This document shows, in pieces, positions 16,906-51,530 of a stretch of DNA of 64,000 nucleotides. The position numbers and the translations under genes are program-made. The stretch lies in NCBI GenBank assembly GCA_017161655.1, contig JADFCV010000004.1, positions 75,378 to 139,377 of the forward strand, read 5' to 3'. A model generated the notes under the pieces. The model was not told where the DNA came from. It saw only the letters and a list, made by a program, of their open reading frames with translations, and made no database searches. Position 1 is the first letter of the stretch. The number at the start of each line of letters is the position of its first letter. The DNA is from Candidatus Sumerlaeota bacterium (lineage in GTDB: Bacteria; Sumerlaeota; Sumerlaeia; Sumerlaeales; Sumerlaeaceae).

Positions 16906-16975
16906 AAACCCAGGCTAAGCAAGGACATTCCAAAGCAATCTTTCCTACATAAGAACAAGTTAGCAAAAATACTTG

Positions 16976-17500
16976 CTAAGGCTTTGTGGCGTGGACGGAA
17001 GGGTGTTCCTGCTCGTGCCCCAAGAGTTCTTGCAGTACCTCGCGGGCACGAGCGATGAAATGGGGGAGGGCTTTTTCGACAACGGATGACAATCCCTCCT
17101 TTACCGTGAAGGGATCTTCCACCTCGAGTGCCAGGATGCGGATCTCCTTCGGGAAGGCAATTTCAAGTCGCCGAGCAAGATCCAAGACTTCCGGAAGTCC
17201 CGCGTAGTGGGGTGATGGGGCGACCACCCGCGAAAAATCGTCGGGACCAAACTCAAGAATGGTTCCCACTTCGTGACGCATCGTCACGCAGGCATCGAGC
17301 AAAAGAGCTTTTTCATAGCCCTCCAGCAGCTCCACGAGTGCAAGTCCGGCTTCCCCTGTTTCAACAAAATCGACGTGCTCTGGAAAAGCATAGCGAAGCG
17401 CACGGGCTGCCAGTAAGCCCACAGCATCATCCCCAAGGATATCGTTCCCCATCGCTAGAACGACAACCCGCGCGCTTCGCCTTTCCTCTTCTCTACGCAT
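16976..17500 (-). CDS. Hydrogenase maturation protease (HycI/HoxW/FrhD-type endopeptidase)
   Basis: VVVLAMGNDILGDDAVG motif. Last gene after mvhA. Start placed at the internal Met (MRREEERR); the longest ORF extends to 17563. Confidence 0.75.
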   Translation of the reverse strand: MRREEERRSARVVVLAMGNDILGDDAVGLLAARALRYAFPEHVDFVETGEAGLALVELLEGYEKALLLDACVTMRHEVGTILEFGPDDFSRVVAPSPHYAGLPEVLDLARRLEIAFPKEIRILALEVEDPFTVKEGLSSVVEKALPHFIARAREVLQELLGHEQEHPSVHATKP

Positions 17501-17525
17501 CCCTACGCACTTTTCTCCGCTTCTA

Positions 17526-19049
17526 TCATCGGCGAATCTCGCGCACGACTTCACCTGCGGCATTGCGTATGCGTGCGATCAAAGGCATCTCGCCTGGCAA
17601 TGAATGTGTCGCGCAAGCGTGGCAGGGATCGTAGGCGCGGAAAGCCATCTCCACTTTGTTGAGAAGCCCCTCGCTTACCTGGCCGCCGCGGATAAGTGCC
17701 TTTGCAGCTTTTTCCACGCTCATGGCCATCCGCGCAGAGTTGTTCTGCGTGGCAACGATGAGATTCACTTTTGTCAGGATGCCGCGTTCGTCGGTTTCAT
17801 AGTGGTGAATCAGGGTTCCTCGCGGAGCCTCGACAACGCCAATGCCCACACTCGGTCGCTCTGTTGGCAGTCGCCGGATCTCGGTGCTTGTAATTTCTGG
17901 ATCATTGATCAGCTCGACCATGCGTTCTGCCGCGTACACCATCTCAACCACACGAGCCCAATGGTTGGCGAGCGTATGATGAACCGGGTAGCCCAGCGTT
18001 GCGAAGTATTCCTCGCGGGCTTTCTGCGCCTCAGGGGTCGCCATGCGTTCGGATGCGTTCAGGCGTGCCAGCGGTGCAACCGAATAAATTCCGCTCTCTG
18101 GGCCATCCACAAAGCCCTTCCAGCCAACCGGTTTCAAGTAGCAGAATTTTACGTAGCTCCACGGCTCAACGTGCTCGGCGATGACGTCGAGATACTTTTG
18201 CGCGGGAAACTTCACCACTTCTTTGCCCGTCGGATCAACAACGCGAATCATGCCGTCGTAGAAATTCGGACAATTGTTCTCGTCCACGAGGCCCATGTAA
18301 TGCGTGCGATGTGTGTAAGCGTCGGACGTGATGAGTTTCACGTACTCATCGTTTTTGAGCACAATGTCGCGGAAGATCTGGAGAGTGAAGAGAGCGAAGT
18401 CCAGAGCGTCCCGGCAGAGTTCTTGGAATTGCGGCAAATCCTCCTTGGCGATTCCTTTCGCCACCCCTCCCGGCAGTCCCAGCACGGGGTGGATCACCTT
18501 GCCCCCGAGATACGCGATGAACTCGCGTAGCTTGCGCCGCGTAGAAATCACCCGCTTGCCGACTTCCAGACCCGCTTTTTCCACGACGCCGAGAACGTTG
18601 CGCATCGAGGCAGGCGCCTCTGGCCCCACGATAAAATCTGGACCGCCAAGCACGAAAACATGCAGAGCATGATCTTCCAGCATGAAGGTGTTGTAAACCA
18701 GCTCGCGCAATTTCTTAGCAGCCGACGGAGGATCGACCTTGTACAAATCATCGAGCGCCTTTGTCGCAGCCATGTGATGGGCTGTCGGGCACACCCCACA
18801 GATGCGACTCGTAATCTGCGGCATGTCTTCGGCTGGGCGGCCCAGGCTAAAGACTTCGAATCCGCGAAGCTCCGGCACTTGGAAGTATGCGCGCTCGACG
18901 TCACCCTTATCATCGAGGAAAATGTCAATTTTCCCATGACCCTCAAGTCGTGTGATAGGGTCCACCGTGATGCGCCGTCGCGCTGCCGAATATGCCGCGT
19001 TCGCCTGCTTGTGTCCCTCGTTGAAAACATCTTGTACTTGTTTATCCAT
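17526..19049 (-). CDS. mvhA: [NiFe]-hydrogenase large subunit, group 3c (methyl-viologen-reducing type)
   Basis: N-terminal RICGVCPTAHHMA (RxCGxCxxxH) and C-terminal DPCHACATH (DPCxxCxxH) Ni-Fe ligand motifs. Genomic context with mvhDG and hdrABC. Confidence 0.9.
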   Translation of the reverse strand: MDKQVQDVFNEGHKQANAAYSAARRRITVDPITRLEGHGKIDIFLDDKGDVERAYFQVPELRGFEVFSLGRPAEDMPQITSRICGVCPTAHHMAATKALDDLYKVDPPSAAKKLRELVYNTFMLEDHALHVFVLGGPDFIVGPEAPASMRNVLGVVEKAGLEVGKRVISTRRKLREFIAYLGGKVIHPVLGLPGGVAKGIAKEDLPQFQELCRDALDFALFTLQIFRDIVLKNDEYVKLITSDAYTHRTHYMGLVDENNCPNFYDGMIRVVDPTGKEVVKFPAQKYLDVIAEHVEPWSYVKFCYLKPVGWKGFVDGPESGIYSVAPLARLNASERMATPEAQKAREEYFATLGYPVHHTLANHWARVVEMVYAAERMVELINDPEITSTEIRRLPTERPSVGIGVVEAPRGTLIHHYETDERGILTKVNLIVATQNNSARMAMSVEKAAKALIRGGQVSEGLLNKVEMAFRAYDPCHACATHSLPGEMPLIARIRNAAGEVVREIRR

Positions 19050-19070
19050 GGCCTGGAACTCCTCGAATGA

Positions 19071-20042
19071 TTATTTCAGGTCCACACGTCGCCGCAGCAG
19101 CGATCGCGCAAGACTGTAACGGTAAAACGTCCCAACGGGATCGGGAATCGTAGAGAGAATCTTTTCGATTTCTGCCTCATCCTCTGCGGCCACGTTGGCA
19201 CACAGTGATGACAGAATCTTGGCTCCCTGGTCGCGTACCCTCGAGGGTGGGCCATAACACCCGGTGCAGGGCATATTCCCTGTAATACACGCTGCCCCGC
19301 AACCTGAGCGCGTTGCTGGTCCCATGCAAATAAGCCCCTGGGCAAGGAAACACAAATTCGGATCCGCAATGACCTCGTGCGGCCGCTTGAATTCTTTGAA
19401 GCTCACTTCTGTCGGCTTCGATTCCTTGCGCGGACACTCATCGCACAATGCAACGTCTGGCGCGAGAACACTTCCTTTGGGGGGCAGCTCGCCCTTCAGG
19501 AGTGCTCCTACAGCCTGGGCCAAAAGCTTGGGAGATGGGGCGCATCCCGGAAGGTAATAATCCACCTCGATCACTTGATCCAAGGCGCGTACGACATTGC
19601 GGAACTCTGGCAATGTCACTTCATGCCCATTGTCGCTAAATCTGGGCTGTGGTGTCACCCCTTCCGGATTTGTCACGGAAGGCGCCTGTTTGTACACGTA
19701 CTCAAGGATCTGCTCTCGGGAGAACTGGTTTGCCAGTGCAGGAATTCCGCCGAGATGGGCGCAGGAGCCATAAGCGATAATGTACTGACTCTTACGCCGC
19801 AAGAGCCTCGCCATCTCTTCCTGCTCGGAGGTGCGGATGGCACCATTAATCATCGTGGCAAGGATAGATTGGTCTGGCATTGCCTCGACGTCGCTCACCT
19901 TGAAATCCATGGCCACAGGCCAGAAAACAATGTCCACCGCTCCAGCCACATCGAGGATGCTTTCCGCCAGGTCGACGACTGACTCCTCGCAACCACCGCA
20001 CGAGGCGCACCAGTAAAAGGCGATTTTCGGTTTCTCAGGCAT
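19071..20042 (-). CDS. mvhG: [NiFe]-hydrogenase small subunit, group 3c
   Basis: CASCGGCEES proximal-cluster motif and multiple Cys clusters (GCAPSP; CDECP; CTGCYGPP). Confidence 0.85.
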   Translation of the reverse strand: MPEKPKIAFYWCASCGGCEESVVDLAESILDVAGAVDIVFWPVAMDFKVSDVEAMPDQSILATMINGAIRTSEQEEMARLLRRKSQYIIAYGSCAHLGGIPALANQFSREQILEYVYKQAPSVTNPEGVTPQPRFSDNGHEVTLPEFRNVVRALDQVIEVDYYLPGCAPSPKLLAQAVGALLKGELPPKGSVLAPDVALCDECPRKESKPTEVSFKEFKRPHEVIADPNLCFLAQGLICMGPATRSGCGAACITGNMPCTGCYGPPSRVRDQGAKILSSLCANVAAEDEAEIEKILSTIPDPVGTFYRYSLARSLLRRRVDLK

Positions 20043-20544
20043 GGCTGGTCACCTCCTCGCTTTTCTGTTGTTCTTCTGCAGCAGCGACCATATTGTGAAG
20101 TTCCGCGACTTCTTTGTCCCACTCCACAAATCGCTGCGGCAAATTCAGGGGAGGAAGCTCACGAAGCTTCGCGACAAATTCATTCACCACCTGACGCAAT
20201 TTGTCGCCCTCAGATGCGGAAATCCACTCCAGGCGCAAGCGGTCAGGTTCGATACCCATTTGCTCCACCACACGCTTCAGCAGCTTGAAACGCCGCAGAC
20301 ATTTATAGTTGCCGCTGATGTAGTGGCAGTCGCCTGGGTGGCAGCCGCCAATCAGCACCCCATCGGCGCCGCGCGCAAATGCCTCGAGCACAAACTGTGG
20401 GTCCACTCGCCCACTGCACATGACGCGAATCGTGCGCAGATTTGGCGCATATTTCATGCGCGAGACCCCAGCGAGGTCGGCTGCCGCATACGTGCACCAG
20501 TTGCAGAAAAACGCCACGATTTTTGGCTCGTATGTCTCAGACAT
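20035..20544 (-). CDS. mvhD: Methyl-viologen-reducing hydrogenase delta subunit (MvhD/FlpD)
   Basis: KIVAFFCNWCTYAAADLAG ... IRVMCSGRVDP ... GADGVLIGGCHPGDCHY, the canonical MvhD Cys pattern. 8-bp overlap with mvhG. Confidence 0.85.
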   Translation of the reverse strand: MSETYEPKIVAFFCNWCTYAAADLAGVSRMKYAPNLRTIRVMCSGRVDPQFVLEAFARGADGVLIGGCHPGDCHYISGNYKCLRRFKLLKRVVEQMGIEPDRLRLEWISASEGDKLRQVVNEFVAKLRELPPLNLPQRFVEWDKEVAELHNMVAAAEEQQKSEEVTSHA

Positions 20545-22528
20545 GGCTCAACACCTCGTCAATTTCGCTGAAGATCTGATCGTCCTCGAAAAGGTTCTGG
20601 ATAATCGAACCCGACGGACATGCTGCCACACACGTTCCGCATCCCGCGCACAGCGCTTCATCAATGCGCGCTTTTTTGAGTTGTTCGTCGAAACTGATGG
20701 CGTGATACGGGCACAGCGGAATGCAGGATTTACACCCGCTGCAGTGATCCGGGTTGATGTATGCCGTATTTGGTTCGATCTCCACGAACCCTTTGTCGAG
20801 TAGCGCTATTGCGTGTGCCGCAGCCGCACCTGCCTGGGCCACGGTGTCAGGGATGTCTTTTGGTCCCTGGCAGCAGCCCGCGATAAACACGCCAGCCGTG
20901 GCGGTTTCCACGGGTGCAAGTTTGGGGTGCTTCTCGAGGAAGAAACCCTCTTTCGAGCAGGAGATATTAAACATGCGCCGCACCTCGTCCGCCCCAGCAG
21001 CGGGCTCCAGTCCGACCGATAGCACCACCATGTCCACAGGGATGCGTCGCACGTAGGCCGACAGCGTGTCCTCCACGCGGATCACCAGTTTGCCTTCTTC
21101 TTCGGGCGTCATCGTCCAATCGGTCACCTCGGCCGCACGCCCGCGGATCATCTGAATTCCTTCGTCTAGCAAGCGCTCGTAAAACTCATCGTAGCCCTTC
21201 CCTGGGCAGCGCATATCAATGTAGAATTGGTACACGTCAGCCCCTGTGTGCTCGCGCAGCAAGTGAGCAAGCTTGAGCGAGTACATGCAGCACACACGCG
21301 AGCACCAGCGGTTCGTCTTTTTGTCGCGAGAACCAACACAGTGGATGATGCCAATCGACTTTGGCTTGCGGCCATTGCGGCAAACGATCTCGCCGCCCGT
21401 CGGCCCGGAGGAATTCACCAGCCGCTCGACCTCGAGAGACGTGTAAACATTCGCATAGATTCCATAGCCGTATAAGGGCAGCCGCGTCGCATCGAACGTC
21501 TTGAAACCGGTCGCAATAATCACGGCGCCGACTTCGATTTCCTCGATGCGTTCCGTCTGAGAAAAATCCACCGCTTTACGGTCACACACTGTCGCGCAAG
21601 GCGACTTGCACTTCCCTGTCTTGAATTTCAGGCAGGTCTCGGGATCAATCGTCACCACCGGCGGCACCGCCTGCGGGAACGGCATGAAGATCGGCTTACG
21701 CTTGCCCAGCCCCTCATTAAACTCGTCCTCGAATTTGGGCTCTTTGTAGACGCAAGCGCTTACGCACTCCATGCAGCCCACGCAAAGCTCTTCATCAATG
21801 TAACGCGGTTTCCGGCGCACTTTGACCTGGAACTTGCCAACGTGCCCGGCCACCTCCTGCACTTCAGAATAGGTCCACAGAGTGATGTTCGGGTGCTCGC
21901 GCACCTCGCTCATCTTTGGCGTGAGGATACAGGCCGCGCAATCGAGCGTCGGGAAAGTCTTATCATATTTGGCCATGTGGCCACCGATCGACGGCTCGCG
22001 TTCGACAAGATAAACGTGTTTGCCGCTGTTTGCGATCTCGAGTGCCGCCGTAATGCCAGCGATGCCGCCCCCAACCACAAGCACGCTTTGATCAACAGCG
22101 AAACGCTTGCGTTCGAGCGGTTTGTGATACTGGACGCGCGCCACGGCCGCTCGTACTTGGTCCTTCGCCTTTTCCGTTGCCGCCTTGCGATCTTCATGCA
22201 CCCACGAGCCATGCTCGCGGATGTTCACCATCTGGAAATAATACGGGTTGAGCCCAGCGCGTTGCAAAGCGCCCCGGAATGTGGCTTCGTGAAGGTTTGG
22301 CGAACACGCGGCCACCACGATGCGATTCAGGCCGTGCTCGGCAATGTCCGCGATGATCATCTCTTGTCCTGGATCCGAGCACATATACTTGTAAGTCCGT
22401 GCCAAAGCGACGTGTGGCAGCGTCTGTGCGTAATCGCACACGGCTTTCACGTCAATGGTGCCCGCAATATTCAGCCCGCAGTGGCAGATGTAGACCCCAA
22501 TGCGAACCTCTTTTCCGTTGTTTTCCAT
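20537..22528 (-). CDS. hdrA: Heterodisulfide reductase subunit A (FAD, multiple Fe-S)
   Basis: VYICHCGLNIAG N-terminal Cys motif. FAD-binding VVGGGIAGITAALE. Two 4Fe-4S ferredoxin motifs. Start placed at the internal ATG (MENNGKEV) preceded by AAGGAGGTG, 13 nt after the hdrB stop. Confidence 0.9.
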   Translation of the reverse strand: MENNGKEVRIGVYICHCGLNIAGTIDVKAVCDYAQTLPHVALARTYKYMCSDPGQEMIIADIAEHGLNRIVVAACSPNLHEATFRGALQRAGLNPYYFQMVNIREHGSWVHEDRKAATEKAKDQVRAAVARVQYHKPLERKRFAVDQSVLVVGGGIAGITAALEIANSGKHVYLVEREPSIGGHMAKYDKTFPTLDCAACILTPKMSEVREHPNITLWTYSEVQEVAGHVGKFQVKVRRKPRYIDEELCVGCMECVSACVYKEPKFEDEFNEGLGKRKPIFMPFPQAVPPVVTIDPETCLKFKTGKCKSPCATVCDRKAVDFSQTERIEEIEVGAVIIATGFKTFDATRLPLYGYGIYANVYTSLEVERLVNSSGPTGGEIVCRNGRKPKSIGIIHCVGSRDKKTNRWCSRVCCMYSLKLAHLLREHTGADVYQFYIDMRCPGKGYDEFYERLLDEGIQMIRGRAAEVTDWTMTPEEEGKLVIRVEDTLSAYVRRIPVDMVVLSVGLEPAAGADEVRRMFNISCSKEGFFLEKHPKLAPVETATAGVFIAGCCQGPKDIPDTVAQAGAAAAHAIALLDKGFVEIEPNTAYINPDHCSGCKSCIPLCPYHAISFDEQLKKARIDEALCAGCGTCVAACPSGSIIQNLFEDDQIFSEIDEVLSHV

Positions 22529-22541
22529 CGTCGTCACCTCC

Positions 22542-23432
22542 TTATGCTCCCACCGCCGCCGGGGCAAACTGCTTGCGAAGCGCACACCGATCCCAGGTGA
22601 GATTGCGCTGCAGGCCAAGCGTCTTTGGATCTATTCCGAACGCCAACCCCATGAGCTGCGTGTAGTACATGCAGGGAATCGAGACGTCTTCGCCAAATCG
22701 CCGGACGATTTCCGGTTGATAAGAATCGAGATTGAAGTGGCACAGCGGGCACACACTCACGATGAGGTTAGCCCCCTGGCGCTTGGCTTCGCGAAGGATG
22801 GCAAAGACCAAACGTTGAGCCACTGAAGGCAGCGTGCCCATCTGGCTGCCTCCACAGCAGCGTGTCTTCAGGGGGAAGTGCACCGAACGCGCGCCAAGAG
22901 CTTCGCATAACTCGTCAATCTTAGTGGGGAAGTGCTGCTGGTCGAAATCCTTGTAAGGTCTCACGGTTTGGCAGCCATAGTATGCCGCCACTTTCACGTC
23001 TTTCAGAGGGAACTTGACGTGCTTCTTGATTTCGTCGAGCCCGACATCATGGACAAAGATGTCGAGCATGTGGCGCACGCGCACAGTGCCTTGGTAGTTT
23101 AGTCCTGCCTTCCGCAACGAGCCCTTCACACGATTCCCCACCGCCGGGTATTCTTCAATATAATGTTTCGTCTTATTAAGGACGAGGTAGCAGCCGCTGC
23201 ACGGTGTGGTCATCTGTGTGGCCCCCTCTTTTTCCGCCAGCGCGAGATTCCGGGCGGCCAGCGCGAGAGCATTGTGCTCATCCACAGACATGTACGCCGT
23301 GGCCCCGCAGCAGTTCCAGTCATCAATCTCTTTTAGCTCCACACCAAGCTCACGGATGACAGCCTGCGTACTCTCCTCGCAGGCACGTCCAGTGCCCAGC
23401 ACGGAGCAGCCGGGGAAGTAATGGTACCTCAT
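22542..23432 (-). CDS. hdrB: Heterodisulfide reductase subunit B (two CCG domains)
   Basis: CxxCG...CCG repeats (WNCCGATA; PCSGC; KTRCCGGS; CPLCHFNLD). Confidence 0.88.
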   Translation of the reverse strand: MRYHYFPGCSVLGTGRACEESTQAVIRELGVELKEIDDWNCCGATAYMSVDEHNALALAARNLALAEKEGATQMTTPCSGCYLVLNKTKHYIEEYPAVGNRVKGSLRKAGLNYQGTVRVRHMLDIFVHDVGLDEIKKHVKFPLKDVKVAAYYGCQTVRPYKDFDQQHFPTKIDELCEALGARSVHFPLKTRCCGGSQMGTLPSVAQRLVFAILREAKRQGANLIVSVCPLCHFNLDSYQPEIVRRFGEDVSIPCMYYTQLMGLAFGIDPKTLGLQRNLTWDRCALRKQFAPAAVGA

Positions 23433-24028
23433 TGTGTTCGCGCCTCCTTTCCATTGCCATTCTCAGGGTATTCCATGATTTCGCGAATACGCTGCGGATC
23501 TCGCACGCTCTCCGGACGCAAGGAGAAACGCCCACGCCGAATGAGCTCGATGCCAAGCCGCGCCATGCCCAGCATCTTGAGGGGATTGGTTAACAAGTTG
23601 AGGCGCGTTACGAGGTGGATCTCATTCACGCGGCCGCGTGATCGAACCATCTTGTAGAACTCGTTCGCCAGCACGACCATCGCAAAACGCCGCGGATAGG
23701 CTTTCTCGCGGATCGCCATCTGCTTGAGGGCGTACATGATGTCGGTCACCTTGATCTCGCGCGGACACTCCACCGTGCACGCATAGCACGATGAGCACAG
23801 CCAAATCGTGTTCGACGCCATGACCTCCTTCTTGAAGCCATAACGGACAAGGTTCATCACGCGCCGCGGTGTCATATCCATGTAGATACTCAGCGGGCAA
23901 ACGCCTGAGCACGTGCCGCACTGAATGCAGCTGTCCAGCTTTTCACAGCCAGGGATCTTCTTGATCGCGGCAGGAAAGCTTGGGTCGCAATCCGCCTGAT
24001 ATTTGATATGCCTCGTGGTGACATCCAT
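23429..24028 (-). CDS. hdrC: Heterodisulfide reductase subunit C (2x[4Fe-4S])
   Basis: CIQCGTCSGVCP and CSSCYACTVECP ferredoxin motifs. 4-bp overlap with hdrB. Confidence 0.85.
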   Translation of the reverse strand: MDVTTRHIKYQADCDPSFPAAIKKIPGCEKLDSCIQCGTCSGVCPLSIYMDMTPRRVMNLVRYGFKKEVMASNTIWLCSSCYACTVECPREIKVTDIMYALKQMAIREKAYPRRFAMVVLANEFYKMVRSRGRVNEIHLVTRLNLLTNPLKMLGMARLGIELIRRGRFSLRPESVRDPQRIREIMEYPENGNGKEARTQ

Positions 24029-24033
24029 GGTGG

Positions 24034-24630
24034 CTATTTGACCCTCCCTTCTTTGGGAATCGTTGGTCTGCCCAAATGCTCGTCAGCCGATGCATGTTCA
24101 CCTAACTGGTGAGCCACGGCCCCCACGTCCATTCGGGCTACTCTCTGGTCACGGAGATGTCGCGCTGAAGCCACGCAGCGCAGCTCTCCCGCGTCAGCAA
24201 TCGTGGCGCGTTCCAGACCATTGCGAACCATCTCGACGGTTTTGCTCCAAAAGCGCTGGAGCGGGCACGTCGCACTGTCTCCACAGATACGCAGTCCAAG
24301 CAGGCACGGAGCGCTGAAAGGCCGCCCAGTCACCGCTTCTGCGACTTCGAGCAATGGGATCGCACTTGCGGGGCGCGCCAGCGTAACTCCGCCGCGAAAA
24401 CCTCGTCGCGTCGTCACAAAACCTTTGCGTCGAAGACGATAAACAAGCTTCGCCAGATAGGCTCGGGGTATCCCAGTCGCACGGGCGATCTCTTCCACAT
24501 GCAAAGGTTGCCCGTCGGGATCCTCTAAAAGGCCCAGGGTCAGGATCGCATAAGCTGTCGTTTGGTTGAGAGCGAGCATGGTCTTGAGCGATTTGTGAAA
24601 ACTTTCACGATCTTTTGTGATGATTTTCAC
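24034..24630 (-). CDS. Rrf2 family transcriptional regulator with three clustered Cys (possible Fe-S sensing)
   Basis: Rrf2 N-terminal wHTH (YAILTLGLL...HVEEIARATGIPRAYLAKLVYRLRRKGFVTTRRG). Cys triad C-x6-C-x5-C. Stop is 5 nt before the hdrC start. The true start may be the internal Met at 24579. Confidence 0.75.
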   Translation of the reverse strand: MKIITKDRESFHKSLKTMLALNQTTAYAILTLGLLEDPDGQPLHVEEIARATGIPRAYLAKLVYRLRRKGFVTTRRGFRGGVTLARPASAIPLLEVAEAVTGRPFSAPCLLGLRICGDSATCPLQRFWSKTVEMVRNGLERATIADAGELRCVASARHLRDQRVARMDVGAVAHQLGEHASADEHLGRPTIPKEGRVK

Positions 24631-24640
24631 AATATCTTAG

Positions 24641-24675
24641 ACCAAAAGGTCAACATAAAAAGTGACCCCAAGGTC
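24641..24675. promoter_or_regulatory. Two GACC-N4-GGTC palindromes, 23 bp apart, candidate operator upstream of the Rrf2-hdr-mvh operon
   Basis: GACCAAAAGGTC (24641-24652) and GACCCCAAGGTC (24664-24675) lie in the divergent intergenic region between the Rrf2 gene and the ADH gene. Confidence 0.3.
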
Positions 24676-24935
24676 GTGTTTTTAGATGACTAAAAAGACG
24701 TGACTTGTGGCCTTTGTCGGCAAAAGAACGGCCTCTCCGCTGGGTCGCTAAACGATTTTGTCCCGGTATTTTTTGCGATATTTTCCGTTGGATTCCTTAT
24801 GGCGCCGAGAAAATTGTCCTAAAATGGTCCCCCTTCCCCCCCGTCAGGATTCTTTCCGTGAGTCAGGTGTAGTTGCCTTCGAACGTTGTCTGTTTAGCGA
24901 AGGTTCGGCGATGCACCATCACAAAGGAGGTCGTT

Positions 24936-25943
24936 ATGAGTTTTCGTGCTTATGCTGCACCGGCAGCGGGAAAAGAGCTTGAACCCATTCAGCTCGAGCG
25001 TCCTTCCGAGTTAGGGCCGTTTGATGTCGAAATCCTCGTGGAATGTTGCGGGATCTGTCATAGTGACATTCACCTCATCGATAACGATTGGAGAATTAGT
25101 TCCTACCCGCTCATACCTGGCCATGAGGTTGTAGGTAAGATAGTGCGGAAAGGTGCGCTTGTCCAGAACGTCAAGGAGGGCGACCGTGTCGGCGTGGGAT
25201 GGCAATGCGCATCGTGCCTGGCGTGTGAATGGTGCGAGCGAGGGGAGGAGCCCGCTTGCGACCACCATGTTGCTACGTGTGTAGGGCGCCCAGGAGGCTA
25301 TGCCGAATATCTCATTGCCGACAGTCGGTTTGCTTTTCCTATACCTGAGGCATTGCCCTCCGAGAGCGCAGCGCCGCTTCTATGCGGCGGCATCACGGTC
25401 TTCACCCCGCTGAGCCGCTTTGCCTCGCCAAGCGACCGCGTCGGTGTCATTGGGATCGGGGGGCTAGGCCATCTTGCGCTGCAGTTTGCCCGTGCGATGG
25501 GCTGCGAGGTTACCGCTTTCTCAACTTCCCCTTCAAAAGAAGCTGAGGCGAAGCGTTTGGGAGCGCATCACTTCGTCGTTTCGACGGATGAGAAGGCGAT
25601 GAAGGCACTTGCCAATTCGTTCGATCTCATTCTTTCCACGGTTACCGCGGACTTGAACTGGCCGATGTGGCTGAGTCTTGTGCGGAAACACGGTCGGCTG
25701 CAGCTTGTGGGAGCCTCGCCAGGAAATATCAGCGTGCCAGTGATGCAGCTCGTGGGAGGTCAAAAGACGATCAGCGGAACGATCATCGGCGGCCGCGCTG
25801 GCATCCGCAAAATGCTCGCTTTCGCTGCGCGGCATGGGGTGCGAGCTCAGGCGGAAGTGCTGCCACTCGATCGCGTGAATGAGGCCGTTGCGCGTGTTCG
25901 CGCTAATCAGGCTCGCTACCGCATGGTGCTCAAAGTGCAGTAA
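24936..25943 (+). CDS. Zinc-dependent NAD(P)-alcohol dehydrogenase (cinnamyl-alcohol dehydrogenase/YahK-like MDR)
   Basis: CGICHSD catalytic Zn motif, GHE, structural Zn Cys tetrad (CASCLACEWC...C), GIGGLGH Rossmann. AAGGAGG ribosome-binding site before the ATG at 24936. Confidence 0.85.
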   Translation: MSFRAYAAPAAGKELEPIQLERPSELGPFDVEILVECCGICHSDIHLIDNDWRISSYPLIPGHEVVGKIVRKGALVQNVKEGDRVGVGWQCASCLACEWCERGEEPACDHHVATCVGRPGGYAEYLIADSRFAFPIPEALPSESAAPLLCGGITVFTPLSRFASPSDRVGVIGIGGLGHLALQFARAMGCEVTAFSTSPSKEAEAKRLGAHHFVVSTDEKAMKALANSFDLILSTVTADLNWPMWLSLVRKHGRLQLVGASPGNISVPVMQLVGGQKTISGTIIGGRAGIRKMLAFAARHGVRAQAEVLPLDRVNEAVARVRANQARYRMVLKVQ

Positions 25944-43135: not shown

Positions 43136-43677
43136 CCCGCCAGCTATGAAATCGGGAGTGCATCATTTTCCGAACCTCACCCAGAGGCAGAAAAACAGAC
43201 GCGTTTAGGGCGTGTAACGCTTGTTCTCTGACAAAGCGCGCAAAACCACAAGAAACTTTTCTTCTCACCTCATGATGGTCCTACAGAGAAATTCTGAGCC
43301 AACGACGCATCGCCTTACGGGGCGAAACGGCTCTCTCTCGGGCGTTTAAAATTTTGGGGCGCTGCCTCTCTCCTGAGGTAGTTCCAGGTACAGGGAGAAG
43401 ACTGGACGCGCTCTCAGCCCCGCCGGGAGTGCCTTAAGAAAACCTCTGACCTCGTGTTTCTCTCGTTTCCTGTCTGCCTTGACTTTGTTCCTGCCATTAG
43501 AGAAATTTGTCTCTAGGTTTGGTTGCGGGCGCGTCCCTTATCGCCCAACGCCCCGCTGCTCCTGCCACACTGTTGAATGAAACACGGTGGCGTGGGACCA
43601 GGCCACGAGCGAGACTAGCCCAGGGCATCGGAGCCAGTCTCGGTGGAGCGCAACCTCAACTCGAAAGGAGATTATCC

Positions 43678-44337
43678 ATGAACCTCCTCAAAGAAATAGC
43701 CGACCTTGTGGCGATGGGGCATCCCGATTCTCAGTCGAAGTATCCGCCTTCGCTGGCAGGTCAGCCCGGCGTTGCCGAGAAAGTGTCGCAGGCACTTTCC
43801 GAAGGCATCGAGCCTCAATGCATTCTCACCCAGGGGCTCATGGCCGGGATGGAAGTTGTTGGACGTCGTTTCGGTGCAGGAGAAATCTTTGTGCCGGAAG
43901 TATTGATGGCGTCGAAAGCCATGAAAGCTGGGGTAGAACTTCTCAAGCCGCACTTAGCAAGTGCCAGCGTTAGTCGGCGAGGGGTTTTCGTCCTCGGCAC
44001 TGTGCAGGGCGACGTCCATGACATCGGGAAGAATCTTGTGAAAATTCTCACCGAGGGTGCCGGCTGGGATGTGGTGGACCTGGGAACCTGTGTTCCGGCA
44101 GAGAAGTTCGTCGAAGCCGTGCGGCAGTATCGACCAGTTGCGGTAGGTCTCTCTGCACTTCTTACCACCACAATGCAAGAAATGCCTAAGGTGATCGAAT
44201 CCTTGCGGCAATCTGATCTAGACGTGCCGGTCATAGTTGGCGGTGCCCCCGTCAACGAATCCTTTGCGCGAAGCATAGGAGCAGAATATGGCCGGGATCC
44301 ACAAGCAGCTGTAGAATTCCTCAGCGCGCTAAATTAG
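43678..44337 (+). CDS. Standalone cobalamin (B12)-binding protein (B12-binding_2 cap plus Rossmann B12-binding domain)
   Basis: DxHxxG motif (GDVHDIGKN), SxL (LSALL), GG (IVGGAP). AAAGGAG ribosome-binding site before the ATG at 43678. 219 aa. Confidence 0.8.
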   Translation: MNLLKEIADLVAMGHPDSQSKYPPSLAGQPGVAEKVSQALSEGIEPQCILTQGLMAGMEVVGRRFGAGEIFVPEVLMASKAMKAGVELLKPHLASASVSRRGVFVLGTVQGDVHDIGKNLVKILTEGAGWDVVDLGTCVPAEKFVEAVRQYRPVAVGLSALLTTTMQEMPKVIESLRQSDLDVPVIVGGAPVNESFARSIGAEYGRDPQAAVEFLSALN

Positions 44338-44461: not shown

Positions 44462-45223
44462 ATGAGTGCGAAACGAGAAAAAATTCTCGAATCAAAGGCG
44501 AGAAAGAGCCAGGAAGAACTGATGGGAGCCGTCACACTCGAAAACATCACGAGCGACCCAAGAAGCCAGACGGTGCCCACGCCTTCTCTCCGGCGCCTCC
44601 CGCTCTATCTCCGGCTCCTCAGGGACTACCAAGCCCAGGGCCGCACGGTTGTCTCATGCACGCAACTCGCATCGGACCTGCGCTTCGACCCCACTCAGGT
44701 GCGAAAAGACCTCGCCCTCACGAAGGTCGGTGGTCGGCCCAAAGTTGGCTACCCCATTGCGGAGCTTATCGCTGCCATCGAAGACTTCCTCGGGTGGCGC
44801 CGGACTATCGAGGCGGTTCTTGTCGGAGTGGGCAGTCTGGGGACGGCACTCCTGGGTTACAACTTCTCGCTCTATGGTTTGAGCATTGTCGGAGCCTTCG
44901 ACTCTGCACCGGACAAGGTCGGGCAGGTTGTCCATGGCCGCGAAATCATGCCCATTGGCTACCTCACCAACTTTATCCGACAGCGCGGGATCCCGATGGG
45001 CATTCTCACTGTGCCCGCAAGCGCCGCGCAAAGCGTGGCGGAAATGATGGTGGCCGGCGGCGTAAAAGCGATTTGGAACTTCACAAGCGCCGCTTTGCAG
45101 TTACCTGACCACGTTCTGGTCGAACGTGCAGATTTCTCCGCCAGCCTGGCTGTGCTCACCCGTGCCCTTGCTCACGGTGCGCGATCCTTGGCCCCGACTA
45201 TCCCTAAAAAGGAGGTCACCTAG
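44462..45223 (+). CDS. rex: Redox-sensing transcriptional repressor Rex
   Basis: Rex wHTH (LPLYLRLLRDY) plus CoA/NAD-binding Rossmann (VLVGVGSLGTALLGY). Stop is 8 bp before hydC. Confidence 0.88.
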   Translation: MSAKREKILESKARKSQEELMGAVTLENITSDPRSQTVPTPSLRRLPLYLRLLRDYQAQGRTVVSCTQLASDLRFDPTQVRKDLALTKVGGRPKVGYPIAELIAAIEDFLGWRRTIEAVLVGVGSLGTALLGYNFSLYGLSIVGAFDSAPDKVGQVVHGREIMPIGYLTNFIRQRGIPMGILTVPASAAQSVAEMMVAGGVKAIWNFTSAALQLPDHVLVERADFSASLAVLTRALAHGARSLAPTIPKKEVT

Positions 45224-45231
45224 GACCAGCT

Positions 45232-45750
45232 ATGGCTCCATGCCTTTGCGAAGCAACCCGCACATCGGATAAAGTCCGTTTTCAGCAAGTCTGCGAAATC
45301 CTCGAACGTTTCGAGCGCAACCCGAATCTCCTGGTACCCATCCTTCAGCAAGTTCAACAGGTTTATCGGTACCTTCCTCCCGAAATCCTTGAGTTTGTTG
45401 CGACCTCTCTAAATCTTCCCGCCGCCCATGTCTATGGGGTGGCCACGTTCTATGCTCATTTTACCCTCGAACCCAAAGGCAAGCACCTCATCAAAGTCTG
45501 CGACGGAACAGCGTGCCATGTGAAAGGATCCACCCAGATCCTTGAAGCCTTGCGCCAGCATCTTCAGCTAAAAGATTCGGCCAACACCACCGAGGATATG
45601 CAGTTCACCGTTGAAACGGTTTCGTGCCTTGGTGCGTGTGGTCTCGCCCCTGTCGTTGTCATCGACGACGACGTTCACGGGAATCTCTCTCCGGCCCAGG
45701 CAGTGCAACTCGTGGACCAAACCGCTTGCGAAAAGGAGGAAGAGCAATGA
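45232..45750 (+). CDS. hydC: [FeFe]-hydrogenase NuoE-like subunit (thioredoxin-like [2Fe-2S] ferredoxin)
   Basis: NuoE/HndA family Cys pattern (CDGTAC...CLGACGLAPVV). Confidence 0.85.
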   Translation: MAPCLCEATRTSDKVRFQQVCEILERFERNPNLLVPILQQVQQVYRYLPPEILEFVATSLNLPAAHVYGVATFYAHFTLEPKGKHLIKVCDGTACHVKGSTQILEALRQHLQLKDSANTTEDMQFTVETVSCLGACGLAPVVVIDDDVHGNLSPAQAVQLVDQTACEKEEEQ

Positions 45751-47678: not shown

Positions 47679-47702
47679 GCCAAACAGTCAGGAGTGTGAG
47701 TC

Positions 47703-49739: not shown

Positions 49740-49745
49740 CTCACC

Positions 49746-51530
49746 ATGGTCCCGCAAGCGCTCCAGAAACCGCCGCTCATATCCACAAATCGCGCCAAGT
49801 GTCGCGACTGTTACCGTTGCGTCCGGATGTGCCCCGTTAAGGCTATTCGGATGAAGGACGGCCAGGCACAGGTGGTGGAGGAGCGGTGCCTCTTCTGTGG
49901 CACCTGTGTGCGGGAGTGCCCTCAAAAGGCTAAAACCATTCGCGACGACACGACGTGGGCCATGGAGCTCCTGGCGCAACGCAAGAAGGTCGCCGCCAGC
50001 GTCGCTCCGACCTATCCAGCAGCCTTTGCAGAGCACGAGGTTCGTCGCCTTGCCAGCGCGCTGCGAAAGCTTGGCTTCGCCTACGTGGGCGAGACGTCTG
50101 TGGGTGCCGATGCTGTGGCTGTGGCCACATCCCGGTGGCTTGCAGAAAACCGCGAGCGCCAGCCGTTGGCTGTGACCAGTGCATGTCCTACCGCCATCCG
50201 CTACATCGAGCTTTACGCACCCGAATCTGTTAGCAGCGTCGTGCCTCTCGTCTCGCCCATGATTGCCCATGCGAAGCATTTGCGGCAGGAAATCGGCGCC
50301 GATGCTGTTGTGTTCATTGGCCCTTGTATCGCCAAGAAATTTGAAGCACAGCGGCCAGAGCATGCTGGACTTGTGGACTGCGTGCTCACCTTTGCGGAGT
50401 TGCGCTCCTGGCTCGAACGCGAAGGTATAGTCTTCGAGCAACTGGAAGAAAGTCGGTTTGATGAAGAAGGTTCCCCGCGCGGGCGTCGCTTTCCTTTGGC
50501 AGGTGGACACCTCCACGCGTCCGAACTTCCCAGCGACCTGCTTCAGCCCGAGGTCTGTGCCGTGACCGGTGTCGAGGCTTTACGGGAATGCTTATCGTTA
50601 GGCGTGCCAGAGCACCCAACAGTTGTTGAGCCTCTTTTCTGTGATGGCGGTTGCATAGGTGGTCCGGGAATCGGATGGGAGGAAAACCATTTTCGACGCA
50701 GACTGCGCGTGTTAGCCCATGCGGCTCGCGCTGCACGGACAAACGGAAAAACCCAAGTACCAGCGCCCACTCCGAAGCTGCTTCAGGGACTGAAAACCAC
50801 TTACCAGCCCCAACCTGTTGACCGCACTTCCCCCAGCGAGGACGCAATTCGCCGCGCCCTTGCCCAGATCGGAAAAATTGATCCACGTGATCAGCTCGAT
50901 TGCGGGGCGTGCGGTTATCGTTCCTGCCGCGAGAAAGCCATCGCCGTGGTACGCGGGCTTGCTGAGCCTGAAATGTGCATGCCTCGTATGCGACTGCTTG
51001 CTGAGCGGCGCATGGATCGCATTATGGAAACGAGCCCCAACGGGATCGTGATTCTCGATCACGAGTTGCGTATCATTGCCATGAATCCGGCGTTCCAAAA
51101 AATGTTCCTGTGTTCTCACCTCGTCCTCGGTCGGCACATCTCATATCTTACAGACGCAACCCCCTTCGAGCAATTGCTTGCCAGTCGTTGCGGCAAGCTG
51201 GAGCGAACAGCGTCGGAACCACGCTACGGCAGAATCTTCCACCAAATCGTTTACGCCCTGGAAGAAGACCAGCAAATCGTCGGGATCTTCGTTGATATCA
51301 CAGAAAGTAGCTTGAACCGCGAAAAGCTGGCGATTGTGCACCGAGAGGCTCTCGATCGTAGCAGGCAACTTCTTGAGCACCAAGTTCGTATGGCCCAGGA
51401 CATCACTCGACTCCTTGCCGAACACACGGCGCACGGCGAGGAGCTCGTGAAAAGCTTGCTTGAAGCAGCACTCGTCGAACCCCACGCCAGCGTTGCCTCA
51501 CACATGGCACTGGCACACAAAGATGCTTAG
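49746..51530 (+). CDS. hydS: HydS-like putative sensory [FeFe]-hydrogenase with C-terminal PAS domain
   Basis: N-terminal 2x[4Fe-4S] ferredoxin. H-domain with degenerate motifs TSACPTA (Cys to Ala), IGPCIAKKFEA (Met to Gly), EPLFCDGGCIGGPGI (Met to Leu). C-terminal PAS-like region. Confidence 0.8.
   Translation: MVPQALQKPPLISTNRAKCRDCYRCVRMCPVKAIRMKDGQAQVVEERCLFCGTCVRECPQKAKTIRDDTTWAMELLAQRKKVAASVAPTYPAAFAEHEVRRLASALRKLGFAYVGETSVGADAVAVATSRWLAENRERQPLAVTSACPTAIRYIELYAPESVSSVVPLVSPMIAHAKHLRQEIGADAVVFIGPCIAKKFEAQRPEHAGLVDCVLTFAELRSWLEREGIVFEQLEESRFDEEGSPRGRRFPLAGGHLHASELPSDLLQPEVCAVTGVEALRECLSLGVPEHPTVVEPLFCDGGCIGGPGIGWEENHFRRRLRVLAHAARAARTNGKTQVPAPTPKLLQGLKTTYQPQPVDRTSPSEDAIRRALAQIGKIDPRDQLDCGACGYRSCREKAIAVVRGLAEPEMCMPRMRLLAERRMDRIMETSPNGIVILDHELRIIAMNPAFQKMFLCSHLVLGRHISYLTDATPFEQLLASRCGKLERTASEPRYGRIFHQIVYALEEDQQIVGIFVDITESSLNREKLAIVHREALDRSRQLLEHQVRMAQDITRLLAEHTAHGEELVKSLLEAALVEPHASVASHMALAHKDA

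What the first reader, a model, noticed from the sequence alone, without database searches (positions are those of the whole stretch)
16976..24630. Eight-gene Rrf2-hdrCBA-mvhDGA-protease operon: a complete bifurcating Hdr/Mvh module under a putative Fe-S regulator
All junctions are -8 to +26 bp. The Rrf2 stop is 5 nt from the hdrC start, so the regulator is translationally coupled to the complex it probably controls. MvhA has intact Ni-Fe ligand motifs and MvhD the canonical Cys pattern. The dedicated C-terminal processing protease is the terminal gene. A full HdrABC-MvhADG set in a bacterium that also encodes ATP sulfurylase and a NADH-linked [FeFe]-hydrogenase points to flavin-based electron bifurcation feeding an unknown disulfide or sulfur acceptor. 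An Rrf2 regulator with a C-x6-C-x5-C triad embedded in the operon has not, to my knowledge, been characterised for Hdr/Mvh.
Basis: partly seen in the sequence, partly recalled or inferred. Interest (0 to 1): 0.6.

Follow-up and report, generated by a model that had tools for sequence, protein, structure and literature searches.

The report
Rex- and Rrf2-controlled Hdr/Mvh hydrogenase operon

Summary
Eight co-directional minus-strand genes (Rrf2, hdrC, hdrB, hdrA, mvhD, mvhG, mvhA, maturation protease) lie at 16976-24579, with junctions of +5, -4, +13, -8, -8, +21 and +25 nt and all cofactor motifs intact.

The source is a Candidatus Sumerlaeota bacterium. Group 3c mvhADG plus hdrABC has already been published for this phylum. 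The seven-gene hdrCBA-mvhDGA-protease cassette, in the same order, occurs in about 30 of 80 loci from many other phyla, and none of the 80 carries an Rrf2 gene.

The Rrf2 gene is therefore a Sumerlaeota-specific addition. It is conserved in every relative down to 53% identity.

It belongs to a large uncharacterised Rrf2 subfamily. Its named members are mostly Planctomycetota, where it heads molybdoenzyme or cytochrome operons. The subfamily carries its own tandem TGACC-N4-GGTCA sites over the -35 region.

They are the only such sites in 64 kb. A rex gene lies 20 kb away.

The likely control is dual: NADH/NAD+ through Rex and Fe-S/O2 status through Rrf2. The link to sulfur metabolism is weak. 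Interest is modest.

The parts
24663..24676 (-). Distal TGACC-N4-GGTCA palindrome (CGACCTTGGGGTCA). Candidate operator of the operon's own Rrf2.
   Evidence: one of only 3 matches with up to 1 mismatch in 64 kb, and 24 bp from the next one; the motif is enriched upstream of this Rrf2 subfamily.
24639..24652 (-). Proximal TGACC-N4-GGTCA palindrome (TGACCTTTTGGTCT). It overlaps the conserved TTGACC -35-like hexamer (24648-24653).
   Evidence: TTGACC is invariant in all Sumerlaeota-clade loci, including L017, which lacks Rex boxes. In paralogues a TAnnnT -10 follows 17 bp later.
24615..24632 (.). Rex operator-like box 1 (TTGTGAAAATCATCACAA on the minus strand). Its centre is 44 nt upstream of the Rrf2 ATG, and it covers the expected -10 position.
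   Evidence: 1 mismatch; 0.21 sites expected per window. (same position in 10 of 11 loci, which include the window itself and some near-duplicate contigs). The consensus is quoted in PMC5317091.
24593..24610 (.). Rex operator-like box 2 (TCGTGAAAGTTTTCACAA). Its centre is 22 nt upstream of the Rrf2 ATG and 22 bp from box 1.
   Evidence: present in 8 of 11 loci, which include the window and near-duplicate contigs. (such boxes occur almost nowhere else in 673 kb of related loci).
24034..24579 (-). Rrf2-family regulator, 181 aa. It has a winged-helix domain, C92-x6-C99-x5-C105, a clade-specific Cys135 and a disordered tail.
23429..24028 (-). HdrC-like subunit with two CX2CX2CX3C motifs. The start is 5 nt after the Rrf2 stop, and its GGGAGGG Shine-Dalgarno sequence lies inside the end of the Rrf2 gene.
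22542..23432 (-). HdrB-like subunit with two complete CCG motifs (the ligands of the non-cubane clusters in the solved complex).
   Evidence: (2e-51 to 8RVU_b; 2.8e-51 to 5ODC_B).
20537..22528 (-). HdrA flavoprotein, 663 aa. It has GGGIAG, CVGSRD and the ferredoxin-type Cys motifs.
   Evidence: (1.4e-215 to 5ODC_A over the full length).
20035..20544 (-). MvhD, the [2Fe-2S] connector subunit.
19071..20042 (-). MvhG, the [NiFe]-hydrogenase small subunit.
17526..19049 (-). MvhA, the [NiFe]-hydrogenase large subunit. It has RICGVC and DPCHACATH motifs plus a 25-residue C-terminal extension.
16976..17500 (-). Hydrogenase maturation endopeptidase (HycI/HybD type), the terminal gene.
16951..16979 (-). 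A/U-rich hairpin (16960-16979) followed by CTTGTTCTT. Weak intrinsic-terminator candidate at the operon end, facing a convergent gene.
   Evidence: The fold is not better than shuffled sequence, so this is tentative.
44462..45223 (+). rex gene, the inferred trans-acting repressor for the two boxes. It heads the NuoE/NuoF/[FeFe]-HydA cluster.
   Evidence: NF003994, 261.7 bits against a cutoff of 130.
24936..25943 (+). Divergent Ahr-like NADPH aldehyde reductase. It is a conserved neighbour that shares the intergenic region.
   Evidence: 416 bits against a cutoff of 470.

Best explanation
The locus is one operon of a Candidatus Sumerlaeota bacterium. It encodes a cytoplasmic group-3c-type [NiFe]-hydrogenase (MvhADG) with its HdrABC partner and the protease that trims MvhA.

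By homology to the solved methanogen complex, it couples H2 with ferredoxin and a still unknown disulfide-type acceptor through the HdrA flavin. It may run in either direction.

Transcription starts at a single promoter upstream of the Rrf2 gene and integrates two signals.

1. Rex. Two tandem Rex operators, 22 bp apart, cover the -10 region and the leader. Rex (gene at 44462) would block the promoter when NADH/NAD+ is low and release it when the cell is over-reduced. This is how Rex controls hydrogenases in other anaerobes.

2. Rrf2. The first gene product is an IscR/NsrR-like Rrf2 dimer with a three-Cys Fe-S site. It would bind two tandem TGACC-N4-GGTCA sites, 24 bp apart, with the proximal one over the -35 hexamer. 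It would thereby autoregulate the operon and make expression of this Fe-S-rich, O2-sensitive complex depend on cluster status (O2, redox or Fe-S supply).

Shown: gene content, motifs, spacing, conservation of synteny and of both site types.

Inferred: binding of each protein to its sites, the sign of regulation, the cluster type, the signal, bifurcation and the substrate.
For: Enzyme identity:
- Family hits for all eight genes.
- Solved-structure matches: HdrA 1.4e-215 and HdrB 2.8e-51 to 5ODC; MvhA 1.6e-105 to 5ODC_F.
- All Cys and Ni-Fe motifs are intact.

Single operon:
- Junctions run from -8 to +25 nt, with Shine-Dalgarno sequences.
- Internal promoter-like and terminator-like sites are not above the shuffle expectation: 4 against 3.5, and 12 against 9.5.
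- A divergent gene lies upstream and a convergent gene downstream.

Synteny:
- ADH<->Rrf2-hdrCBA-mvhDGA-protease is conserved in all relatives with Rrf2 at 53% identity or more, including loci whose outer flanks differ.

Rex:
- The only two matches with up to 2 mismatches in 64 kb are adjacent in this promoter (0.21 expected).
- They keep fixed positions, -44 and -22, in 10 and 8 of 11 loci (the window and some near-duplicate contigs included), with perfect 14/14 matches in L006.
- In 673 kb of other fetched loci, such boxes occur only here, plus one elsewhere.
- The window encodes a Rex equivalog.
- The consensus, and Rex control of hydrogenases, are documented (PMC5317091, PMC6391272).
- Rex boxes also precede hdrC in two Chloroflexota loci.

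Rrf2:
- C92, C99 and C105 are invariant.
- The nearest solved relatives are IscR, NsrR and RsrR.
- TGACC-N4-GGTCA sites are enriched roughly 30-fold or more upstream of subfamily members that head different operons: 5/10 and 6/28, against 0.66% of control windows.
- The same two-site, 24-bp arrangement appears in an independent Planctomycetota locus.
Against: - There are no expression, footprint or biochemical data.
- No convincing -10 hexamer can be named in the window's promoter. If TTGACC is the -35, the position 17 bp downstream reads GTGAAA.
- The TGACC motif is degenerate in several members (L154, L155, L001), and the motif was defined on the same set of loci used for most of the enrichment test.
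- The most distant hdr-linked locus (L017) has no Rex box, and the L001 type has only one.
- No Rex box was found upstream of rex itself.
- TGTGA-N6-TCACA is also the CRP-type core.
- The His that most subfamily members carry at the IscR His107-equivalent position is Gln in this protein, so cluster binding is less certain here than in the relatives.
- A repressor that binds in its holo form would switch the operon on under cluster-damaging conditions, which makes little physiological sense. The sign of regulation is therefore open.
- Hdr and Mvh scores are all below the methanogen equivalog cutoffs, and the acceptor is unknown.
Confidence: 0.6

Rival explanations
1. One reading: the Rrf2 Fe-S protein is the regulator of the operon, acting alone on the intergenic DNA. 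The complex feeds a sulfur-compound acceptor linked to ATP sulfurylase.
For: The Rrf2 gene is the first gene and is conserved with the operon. The three-Cys motif is invariant. Candidate sites lie over the -35 region. ATP sulfurylase is present in the window.
Against: The sat gene is a truncated ORF at the window edge, 16 kb away, with unrelated neighbours. No dsr, apr, qmo, DsrC or TusA gene appears among the window ORFs scanned.
Confidence: 0.15
2. The TTGTGA-N6-TCACAA palindromes are bound not by Rex but by a CRP/FNR-family protein, or by the Rrf2 protein itself. The TGACC element is only the -35 box with chance symmetry.
For: TGTGA-N6-TCACA is also the CRP core (my own knowledge). The right half of the proximal TGACC palindrome is poorly conserved among hdr-linked loci. 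No Rex box lies upstream of rex.
Against: The sites match the extended Rex consensus, including the outer TT/AA and inner A/T positions, with 14 of 14 in L006. Paralogous Rrf2 genes that head molybdoenzyme operons lack these boxes but keep the TGACC sites, so the boxes do not travel with the Rrf2 gene. L017 keeps a perfect TGACCTTATGGTCA and has no box.
Confidence: 0.15
3. The Rrf2 protein is a cluster-less thiol-switch or ligand-binding regulator, like CymR or SaiR. Alternatively it is a general IscR-type housekeeping regulator that merely sits next to the operon.
For: All IscR, NsrR, RirA and CymR equivalog models score far below their cutoffs. The His108-equivalent residue is lost here. A clade-specific Cys135 could form a disulfide.
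Against: The three Cys have the IscR/NsrR spacing and are invariant over a subfamily of at least 787 proteins. Members are almost always the first gene of a specific redox-enzyme operon rather than of isc or suf genes.
Confidence: 0.1

Closest known systems
MvhADG-HdrABC of Methanothermococcus thermolithotrophicus and other methanogens (PDB 5ODC, 8RVU)
   Same: It has the same six subunits. HdrA matches at full length (1.4e-215), HdrB at 2.8e-51 and MvhA at 1.6e-105. All cluster, flavin and Ni-Fe motifs are present.
   Different: The host is a bacterium, and CoM/CoB biosynthesis was not found in the phylum (PMC8092238), so the acceptor is unknown. All subunits score below the methanogen equivalog cutoffs. 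All genes lie in one operon in the order hdrCBA-mvhDGA-protease. MvhA's best solved match is actually the Acetomicrobium-type NiFe hydrogenase 7T2R_D.
Bacterial group 3c hdr/mvh clusters, including those already reported for Sumerlaeota (Fang et al. 2021, PMC8092238)
   Same: The gene set is the same. The cassette order is the same in about 30 loci from Verrucomicrobiota, Elusimicrobia, Acidobacteriota, Gemmatimonadota, Planctomycetota and Chloroflexota, with HdrA up to 71% identical.
   Different: None of those 80 loci has an Rrf2 gene. Some have two-component system genes or hyp genes upstream instead. Only two (Chloroflexota) have Rex boxes.
Rrf2 of the Desulfovibrio vulgaris hmc operon, and TmcR of the tmc operon
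   Same: In both cases an Rrf2-family regulator is encoded inside the operon of a hydrogen-linked redox complex. That those complexes contain an Hdr-related (CCG-domain) subunit is my own recollection and was not checked here.
   Different: Those genes lie at the downstream end or elsewhere in membrane-complex operons of sulfate reducers. No sequence comparison with them was made here.
IscR, NsrR, RsrR and RirA (characterised Fe-S Rrf2 regulators)
   Same: The fold is the same, and the three-Cys spacing resembles the IscR and NsrR spacing as I recall it. Most subfamily members have a His three residues after the third Cys; I recall this as the position of the IscR His107 ligand. Apo-IscR bound to the E. 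coli hydrogenase-1 (hya) operator has been crystallised.
   Different: Scores are well below every equivalog cutoff. There is no Asp8 (NsrR) and no Glu8/His12 (RsrR). His108 is Gln here. The protein has an extra helix carrying Cys135 and a disordered tail of about 35 residues. The candidate operator differs: TGACC-N4-GGTCA, of the TGA-N8-TCA type.
Rex regulons that include hydrogenases (Caldicellulosiruptor, Caldithrix, Clostridia)
   Same: The operator consensus is the same, and the location at the promoter or leader is comparable. A rex gene sits next to a NuoEF-type [FeFe]-hydrogenase.
   Different: The target here is an Hdr/Mvh operon, which does not use NAD(H) directly, and it carries a second, operon-encoded regulator.

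Membership tests
Rrf2 family transcription factors | Match to the family models above the curated cutoffs, and the winged-helix plus dimerisation-helix fold | tested here: met
   PF02082: 89.8 bits (cutoff 30). TIGR00738: 86.8 bits (cutoff 73.3). The AlphaFold model has pLDDT above 85 across most of residues 11-90 and 111-130 (lower over 91-110) and the expected helices and strands.
Fe-S-binding Rrf2 regulators (IscR/NsrR type) | Three conserved Cys with about x5-6 / x5 spacing after the wing | tested here: met
   C92-x6-C99-x5-C105. These are invariant in 14 homologues and in about 45 translated relatives.
Fe-S-binding Rrf2 regulators (IscR/NsrR type) | An identifiable fourth ligand (His107 in IscR, Asp8 in NsrR, Glu8/His12 in RsrR) | tested here: not met
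   Positions 8 and 12 are Thr and Ile. Position 108 is Gln, whereas it is His in most subfamily members. Cys135 is a clade-specific candidate only.
Fe-S-binding Rrf2 regulators (IscR/NsrR type) | Actual cluster binding, and cluster-dependent DNA binding | not testable with these tools
   This needs anaerobic purification, spectroscopy and EMSA.
IscR / NsrR / RirA / CymR / SUF-regulator equivalogs | Score above the NCBIfam equivalog cutoff | tested here: not met
   Bits against cutoff: IscR 45.7 vs 207.6; NsrR 40.5 vs 182; RirA 50.5 vs 193; CymR 33.8 vs 195; suf_reg 60.4 vs 110.7.
HdrABC heterodisulfide reductase | HdrB with two CCG motifs; HdrC with two CX2CX2CX3C motifs; HdrA with an FAD-binding GxGxxG, CxGxRD and ferredoxin domains | tested here: met
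   motif list; searches give full-length matches to 5ODC_A and 5ODC_B.
HdrABC heterodisulfide reductase | Equivalog-level similarity to the CoB-CoM reductases, and presence of the CoM-S-S-CoB substrate | tested here: not met
   Bits against cutoff: HdrA 862.5 vs 1100; HdrB 215.9 vs 345; HdrC 84.2 vs 160. CoM biosynthesis is reported absent from Sumerlaeota (PMC8092238).
Group 3c (Mvh-type) [NiFe]-hydrogenase | Large subunit with an N-terminal RxCGxC and a C-terminal DPCxxCxxH plus cleavable extension; small subunit; MvhD encoded adjacent to hdrA | tested here: met
   The gene order mvhD-G-A directly follows hdrA.
Group 3c (Mvh-type) [NiFe]-hydrogenase | Phylogenetic or HydDB placement in subgroup 3c rather than 3b or 3d | not tested
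   The best NCBIfam hit is VhuA (397.8 bits, cutoff 800). The best PDB hit is 7T2R_D, ahead of MvhA 5ODC_F. No tree was built.
Flavin-based electron-bifurcating complex | H2-dependent, coupled reduction of ferredoxin and a high-potential acceptor | not testable with these tools
   This is inferred only from homology to 5ODC.
Rex regulon member | An operator matching TTGTGAAnnnnTTCACAA in the promoter region, conserved in orthologous loci | tested here: met
   Two sites with 1 mismatch each; 0.21 expected per window. They are conserved at fixed positions in 10 of 11 loci, the window and near-duplicate contigs included.
Rex regulon member | A rex gene in the same genome | tested here: met
   44462-45223: NF003994, 261.7 bits against a cutoff of 130.
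Rex regulon member | NADH-sensitive binding of Rex to the sites, and derepression in vivo | not testable with these tools
   This needs EMSA with and without NADH, or transcriptomics.
Single operon | Co-directional genes with short or overlapping junctions and no internal signals above chance | tested here: met
   Junctions of -8 to +25 nt. Promoter-like sites 4 against 3.5 expected; terminator-like sites 12 against 9.5 expected. Co-transcription itself was not tested.

The most novel reading that the evidence does not exclude
The Rrf2 gene belongs to a large, uncharacterised, IscR-like subfamily with the signature C-LLG[LM]-x2-C-x5-CP-x-H-x-FW. At least 787 proteins match it, and the named ones are mostly Planctomycetota. 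The subfamily acts as an operon-leading, autoregulated Fe-S sensor for anaerobic redox-enzyme operons: Psr-like molybdoenzymes, multihaem cytochromes and, in Sumerlaeota, Hdr/Mvh. It would act through tandem TGACC-N4-GGTCA operators placed over the -35 region. In the Sumerlaeaceae branch the His ligand was replaced (H108 to Q/N) while a new Cys135 appeared, which suggests a changed cluster ligation or signal. The promoter also acquired Rex boxes in place of a normal -10, so Fe-S/O2 status and NADH/NAD+ are combined at one promoter.
Probability: 0.35. Interest if true: 0.45.

Novelty: new member of a known kind. Interest (0 to 1): 0.3.

Why it matters
The physiological role and the substrate of bacterial Hdr/Mvh complexes remain open questions, and this locus does not resolve them.

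What it adds is regulatory context. If the operon is released by Rex at high NADH/NAD+, the complex probably serves redox balancing in a fermentative organism. That could mean acting as an H2-evolving sink, or as a way to regenerate ferredoxin. It would argue against a dedicated sulfur-respiration module.

The Rrf2 subfamily and its candidate operator give a concrete, testable handle on how Planctomycetota and Sumerlaeota gate anaerobic respiratory enzymes. Both are incremental gains.

Tried and rejected
1. A 17-sequence HdrA alignment was too diverse for the genome scan.

2. The Rex-box search around rex and the [FeFe]-hydrogenase cluster found nothing with up to 3 mismatches in intergenic DNA. 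Autoregulation of rex is therefore not supported here.

3. The simple sigma-70 scan found no promoter in the Rrf2 upstream region and nothing above chance inside the cluster. I could not assign a -10 hexamer.

4. Rfam (gathering threshold) found only two tRNAs in the window and no leader RNA.

5. The terminator-like hairpin after the protease gene folds no better than shuffled sequence, so it stays tentative.

6. I considered a DsrC, TusA or dsr/apr/qmo link. None of the roughly 45 window ORFs scanned belongs to those families. The rest of the genome could not be searched.

7. Ravcheev et al. 2012 could not be read. The consensus is cited through papers that quote it.

8. The literature search for Rex together with heterodisulfide reductase regulons gave only one unrelated genome paper.

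9. The structure model of Rrf2 was not used for distances, because no coordinates are returned. Whether Cys135 lies near the cluster site is unknown.

Full report
**1. The observation**

The eight ORFs lie head to tail on the minus strand between 16976 and 24630. Pfam and NCBIfam assign them, in order, as follows:
- an Rrf2-family regulator;
- an HdrC-like di-cluster ferredoxin;
- an HdrB with two CCG domains;
- an HdrA flavoprotein;
- MvhD;
- a [NiFe]-hydrogenase small subunit (VhuG-like);
- a large subunit (VhuA-like);
- a HycI/HybD-type maturation endopeptidase.

I chose start codons by their Shine-Dalgarno sequences and by the lengths called in relatives.

The hdrC ribosome-binding site (GGGAGGG) lies inside the last codons of the Rrf2 gene.

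All diagnostic motifs are present:
- MvhA has RICGVC and DPCHACATH, followed by a 25-residue extension that the protease would remove.
- MvhD has six Cys.
- HdrB has two C...CC...CxxC motifs.
- HdrC has two CX2CX2CX3C motifs.
- HdrA has GGGIAG, CVGSRD and three ferredoxin-type motifs.
- Rrf2 has C92-x6-C99-x5-C105.

Promoter-like and terminator-like sites inside the cluster are not more frequent than in shuffled sequence. The upstream neighbour is divergent and the downstream neighbour is convergent.

One correction is needed. The Rrf2 gene starts at the ATG at 24579 (181 aa), not at the GTG at 24630. An identical 181-aa protein is on record (P0001). Every homologue begins MLALNQ. The 51 nt in between are conserved as DNA palindromes.

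**2. Source and prior knowledge**

The closest Rrf2 homologues come from Candidatus Sumerlaeaceae assemblies and related metagenome-assembled genomes.

Fang et al. 2021 (PMC8092238) already reported group 3c mvhADG together with hdrABC in Sumerlaeota. [quoted passage not shown] The enzyme part of the finding is therefore known.

HdrA, HdrB and MvhA match the solved methanogen complex over their full lengths: 1.4e-215, 2.8e-51 and 1.6e-105 to 5ODC. All subunits nevertheless score below the NCBIfam equivalog cutoffs for the methanogen enzymes. MvhA's best solved match is 7T2R_D, deposited as 'NiFe hydrogenase large subunit'; I recall it as the bacterial electron-bifurcating NiFe hydrogenase of Acetomicrobium.

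**3. How common the arrangement is**

I scanned one genome per species with a small HdrA alignment and kept 80 loci, with HdrA 46-71% identical.

About 30 loci carry hdrC-hdrB-hdrA-mvhD-mvhG-mvhA-protease in exactly this order. They come from Verrucomicrobiota, Elusimicrobia, Acidobacteriota, Gemmatimonadota, Planctomycetota, Chloroflexota and others. The seven-gene cassette is therefore widespread.

An HMM built from the Rrf2 alignment found no Rrf2 ORF in any of the 80 loci. Upstream of hdrC, those genomes have unrelated genes, hyp maturation genes or, in some Chloroflexota, two-component system genes.

Within the Sumerlaeota clade the picture is the opposite. Every Rrf2 relative of 53-83% identity is followed by hdrC and the rest of the cluster wherever the contig extends far enough. 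All but one of the loci that reach far enough upstream (L017 is the exception) also have the divergent Ahr-like aldehyde reductase, including L006, whose outer flanks are different.

The Rrf2 gene is thus a lineage-specific and stable addition to a common cassette.

**4. What kind of Rrf2 it is**

All equivalog models (IscR, NsrR, RirA, CymR, SUF regulator) score far below their cutoffs. The nearest solved proteins are IscR, NsrR and RsrR, at E-values around 1e-7.

Relatives of 40-51% identity are not next to hdr genes. They are the first gene of other operons:
- operons encoding a 4Fe-4S subunit, an NrfD-type membrane subunit and a molybdopterin oxidoreductase of about 1,050-1,090 residues;
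- operons encoding multihaem cytochromes.

Three named examples from Thermogutta, Phycisphaeraceae and another Planctomycetota genome show the same Rrf2-FeS-NrfD-molybdopterin order.

A profile search found at least 787 subfamily proteins. The named ones are mostly Planctomycetota, and none has a specific annotation.

More distant relatives (36-43% identity) precede hemerythrin/PAS, CMD and flavodiiron genes.

The subfamily shares C-LLG[LM]-x2-C-x5-CP-x-H-x-FW. The His sits where IscR has its His107 ligand.

In the window's protein and its closest relatives that His is Gln or Asn, and a Cys at position 135 is conserved instead. L006 has both the His and the Cys. L017 has only the His.

The structure model shows the canonical fold, an extra helix at 134-144 carrying Cys135, and a disordered tail.

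**5. Cis-elements**

Aligning the regions upstream of Rrf2 showed two kinds of conserved palindrome.

(a) Rex boxes. Two 18-bp sites lie at 24615-24632 and 24593-24610. Their centres are 44 and 22 nt upstream of the ATG.
- They match the Rex operator consensus TTGTGAAnnnnTTCACAA with one mismatch each. The consensus is quoted from Ravcheev et al. 2012 in PMC5317091.
- They are the only matches with up to 2 mismatches in the whole window (0.21 expected).
- They hold the same positions in the related loci. L006 has two perfect sites. The L001 type has one site, and L017 has none.
- In 673 kb of the other fetched loci, such boxes occur only upstream of hdr-linked Rrf2 genes, apart from one elsewhere.
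- The window encodes a Rex equivalog at 44462-45223, in front of NuoE/NuoF/[FeFe]-HydA genes.
- Rex control of [NiFe]- and [FeFe]-hydrogenase genes is documented in Caldicellulosiruptor (PMC6391272).
- Two Chloroflexota hdrCBA-mvhDGA loci (L092, L106) also carry Rex boxes upstream of the cluster (36 bp before hdrC in L106; about 370-435 bp before it, ahead of a small unannotated ORF, in L092).

(b) TGACC sites. Upstream of the boxes lie two copies of TGACC-N4-GGTCA, 24 bp apart, at 24663-24676 and 24639-24652.
- These are two of only three matches with up to 1 mismatch in 64 kb.
- The proximal copy contains the invariant TTGACC.
- The same two-site arrangement precedes many of the paralogous Rrf2 genes. 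There the proximal copy overlaps a TTGAC -35, and a TAnnnT -10 follows 17 bp later.
- A site with up to 1 mismatch occurs in the 150 bp upstream of 5 of 10 hdr-linked members and 6 of 28 other members, against 0.66% of control windows.
- An independent Planctomycetota locus shows two sites 24 bp apart. Two other independent loci show only degenerate versions.

Because this motif accompanies the Rrf2 gene whatever the downstream operon is, it is the best candidate for the subfamily's own operator. In the hdr-linked promoters the first Rex box lies where the paralogues have their -10.

**6. Most likely mechanism**

The operon is transcribed from one promoter.

Rex would occupy the two boxes over the -10 and leader when NADH/NAD+ is low, and leave when the cell is over-reduced.

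The Rrf2 dimer would occupy the two sites at and upstream of the -35, depending on the state of its presumed Fe-S cluster, and would autoregulate.

Two known precedents support this reading:
- Apo-IscR has been crystallised bound to the E. coli hydrogenase-1 (hya) operator; that IscR represses hya under aerobic conditions is my own recollection, not checked here.
- The founding Rrf2 is encoded in the D. vulgaris hmc operon, and TmcR in the tmc operon.

The following are inferences: which form of the protein binds, the cluster type, and the signal (O2, redox potential, NO or Fe-S supply). I rate them as follows:
- enzyme identity, about 0.9;
- Rex control, about 0.65;
- Rrf2 autoregulation through the TGACC sites, about 0.5;
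- any specific signal, about 0.3.

Rex gating suggests that the complex belongs to the redox-balancing machinery of a fermentative organism, together with the NADH-linked [FeFe]-hydrogenase. It does not suggest a sulfur-respiratory module.

No dsr, apr, qmo, DsrC or TusA gene is in the window.

**7. Novelty and verdict**

- The Hdr/Mvh set is already known, in this phylum and beyond.
- An operon-embedded Rrf2 regulator of a redox complex is a known kind.
- This particular pairing is new as far as the searched literature goes, and it is restricted to Sumerlaeota.
- The tandem Rex boxes and the subfamily operator are small new details.

I file the finding as a new member of a known kind, with modest interest (0.3). 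The most novel reading still open is that an uncharacterised IscR-like subfamily gates anaerobic respiratory operons, with a ligand swap in the hdr-linked branch.

Noticed in passing
window 44462-52668: This cluster holds rex, NuoE-like, NuoF-like and [FeFe]-hydrogenase genes (group A6-like, 738 bits against a cutoff of 765). They are followed by a second hydrogenase-like protein with a PAS domain (sensory HydS type) and a SpoIIE/PP2C phosphatase. No Rex box lies upstream of rex with up to 3 mismatches.
   Followed up: partly
window 24936-25943 (+); L001-L007, L012-L016: An Ahr-like NADPH aldehyde reductase (416 bits against a cutoff of 470) is divergently transcribed from the Rrf2 gene in all but one (L017) of the Sumerlaeota-clade loci that extend far enough upstream, even where the outer flanks differ. 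A distant Rrf2 relative (L008) also has a zinc ADH in its operon. It may be co-regulated, but no conserved site was found near its start.
   Followed up: partly
L008, L009, L058-L063, L073: Rrf2 relatives of 36-43% identity head operons with a DUF438-hemerythrin-PAS protein, a CMD (AhpD-like) protein and a flavodiiron protein. This is a context typical of O2/NO stress.
   Followed up: partly
L093 4718-8375; L105 2702-4261: In some Chloroflexota, hdrCBA-mvhDGA is directly preceded by a Cache-domain histidine kinase, a hybrid kinase and a stand-alone receiver protein. The same cassette has thus acquired a different regulator.
   Followed up: no
L092 8027-8108 and 15599-15616; L106 8189-8383: Rex-type boxes lie upstream of hdrC in two Chloroflexota loci. 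In L106 one box is next to a divergent hypA and one is 36 bp before hdrC. In L092 a 99-aa ORF without any Pfam match lies between the boxes and hdrC.
   Followed up: no
window 56628-58778 (+) and 62172-63920 (-): Two long ORFs (716 and 582 aa) have no Pfam match. The first is a polytopic membrane protein with a TPR-like C-terminus, in a stretch of strong negative AT skew (-0.285).
   Followed up: partly
window 43507-44337 (+): A B12-binding-domain protein lies immediately upstream of rex. Its function here is unknown.
   Followed up: no
window 29647-33636 (-): A ZnuA/ABC-3-type metal uptake operon lies next to a second zinc-type dehydrogenase (33633-34661). The same neighbourhood is found in L004 and L005.
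   Followed up: no
one search hit list (P0015-P0048): Many of the best-scoring HdrA relatives in the representative library are proteins of 1,000-1,500 residues with two to six HdrA-like stretches (tandem or fused HdrA).
   Followed up: no
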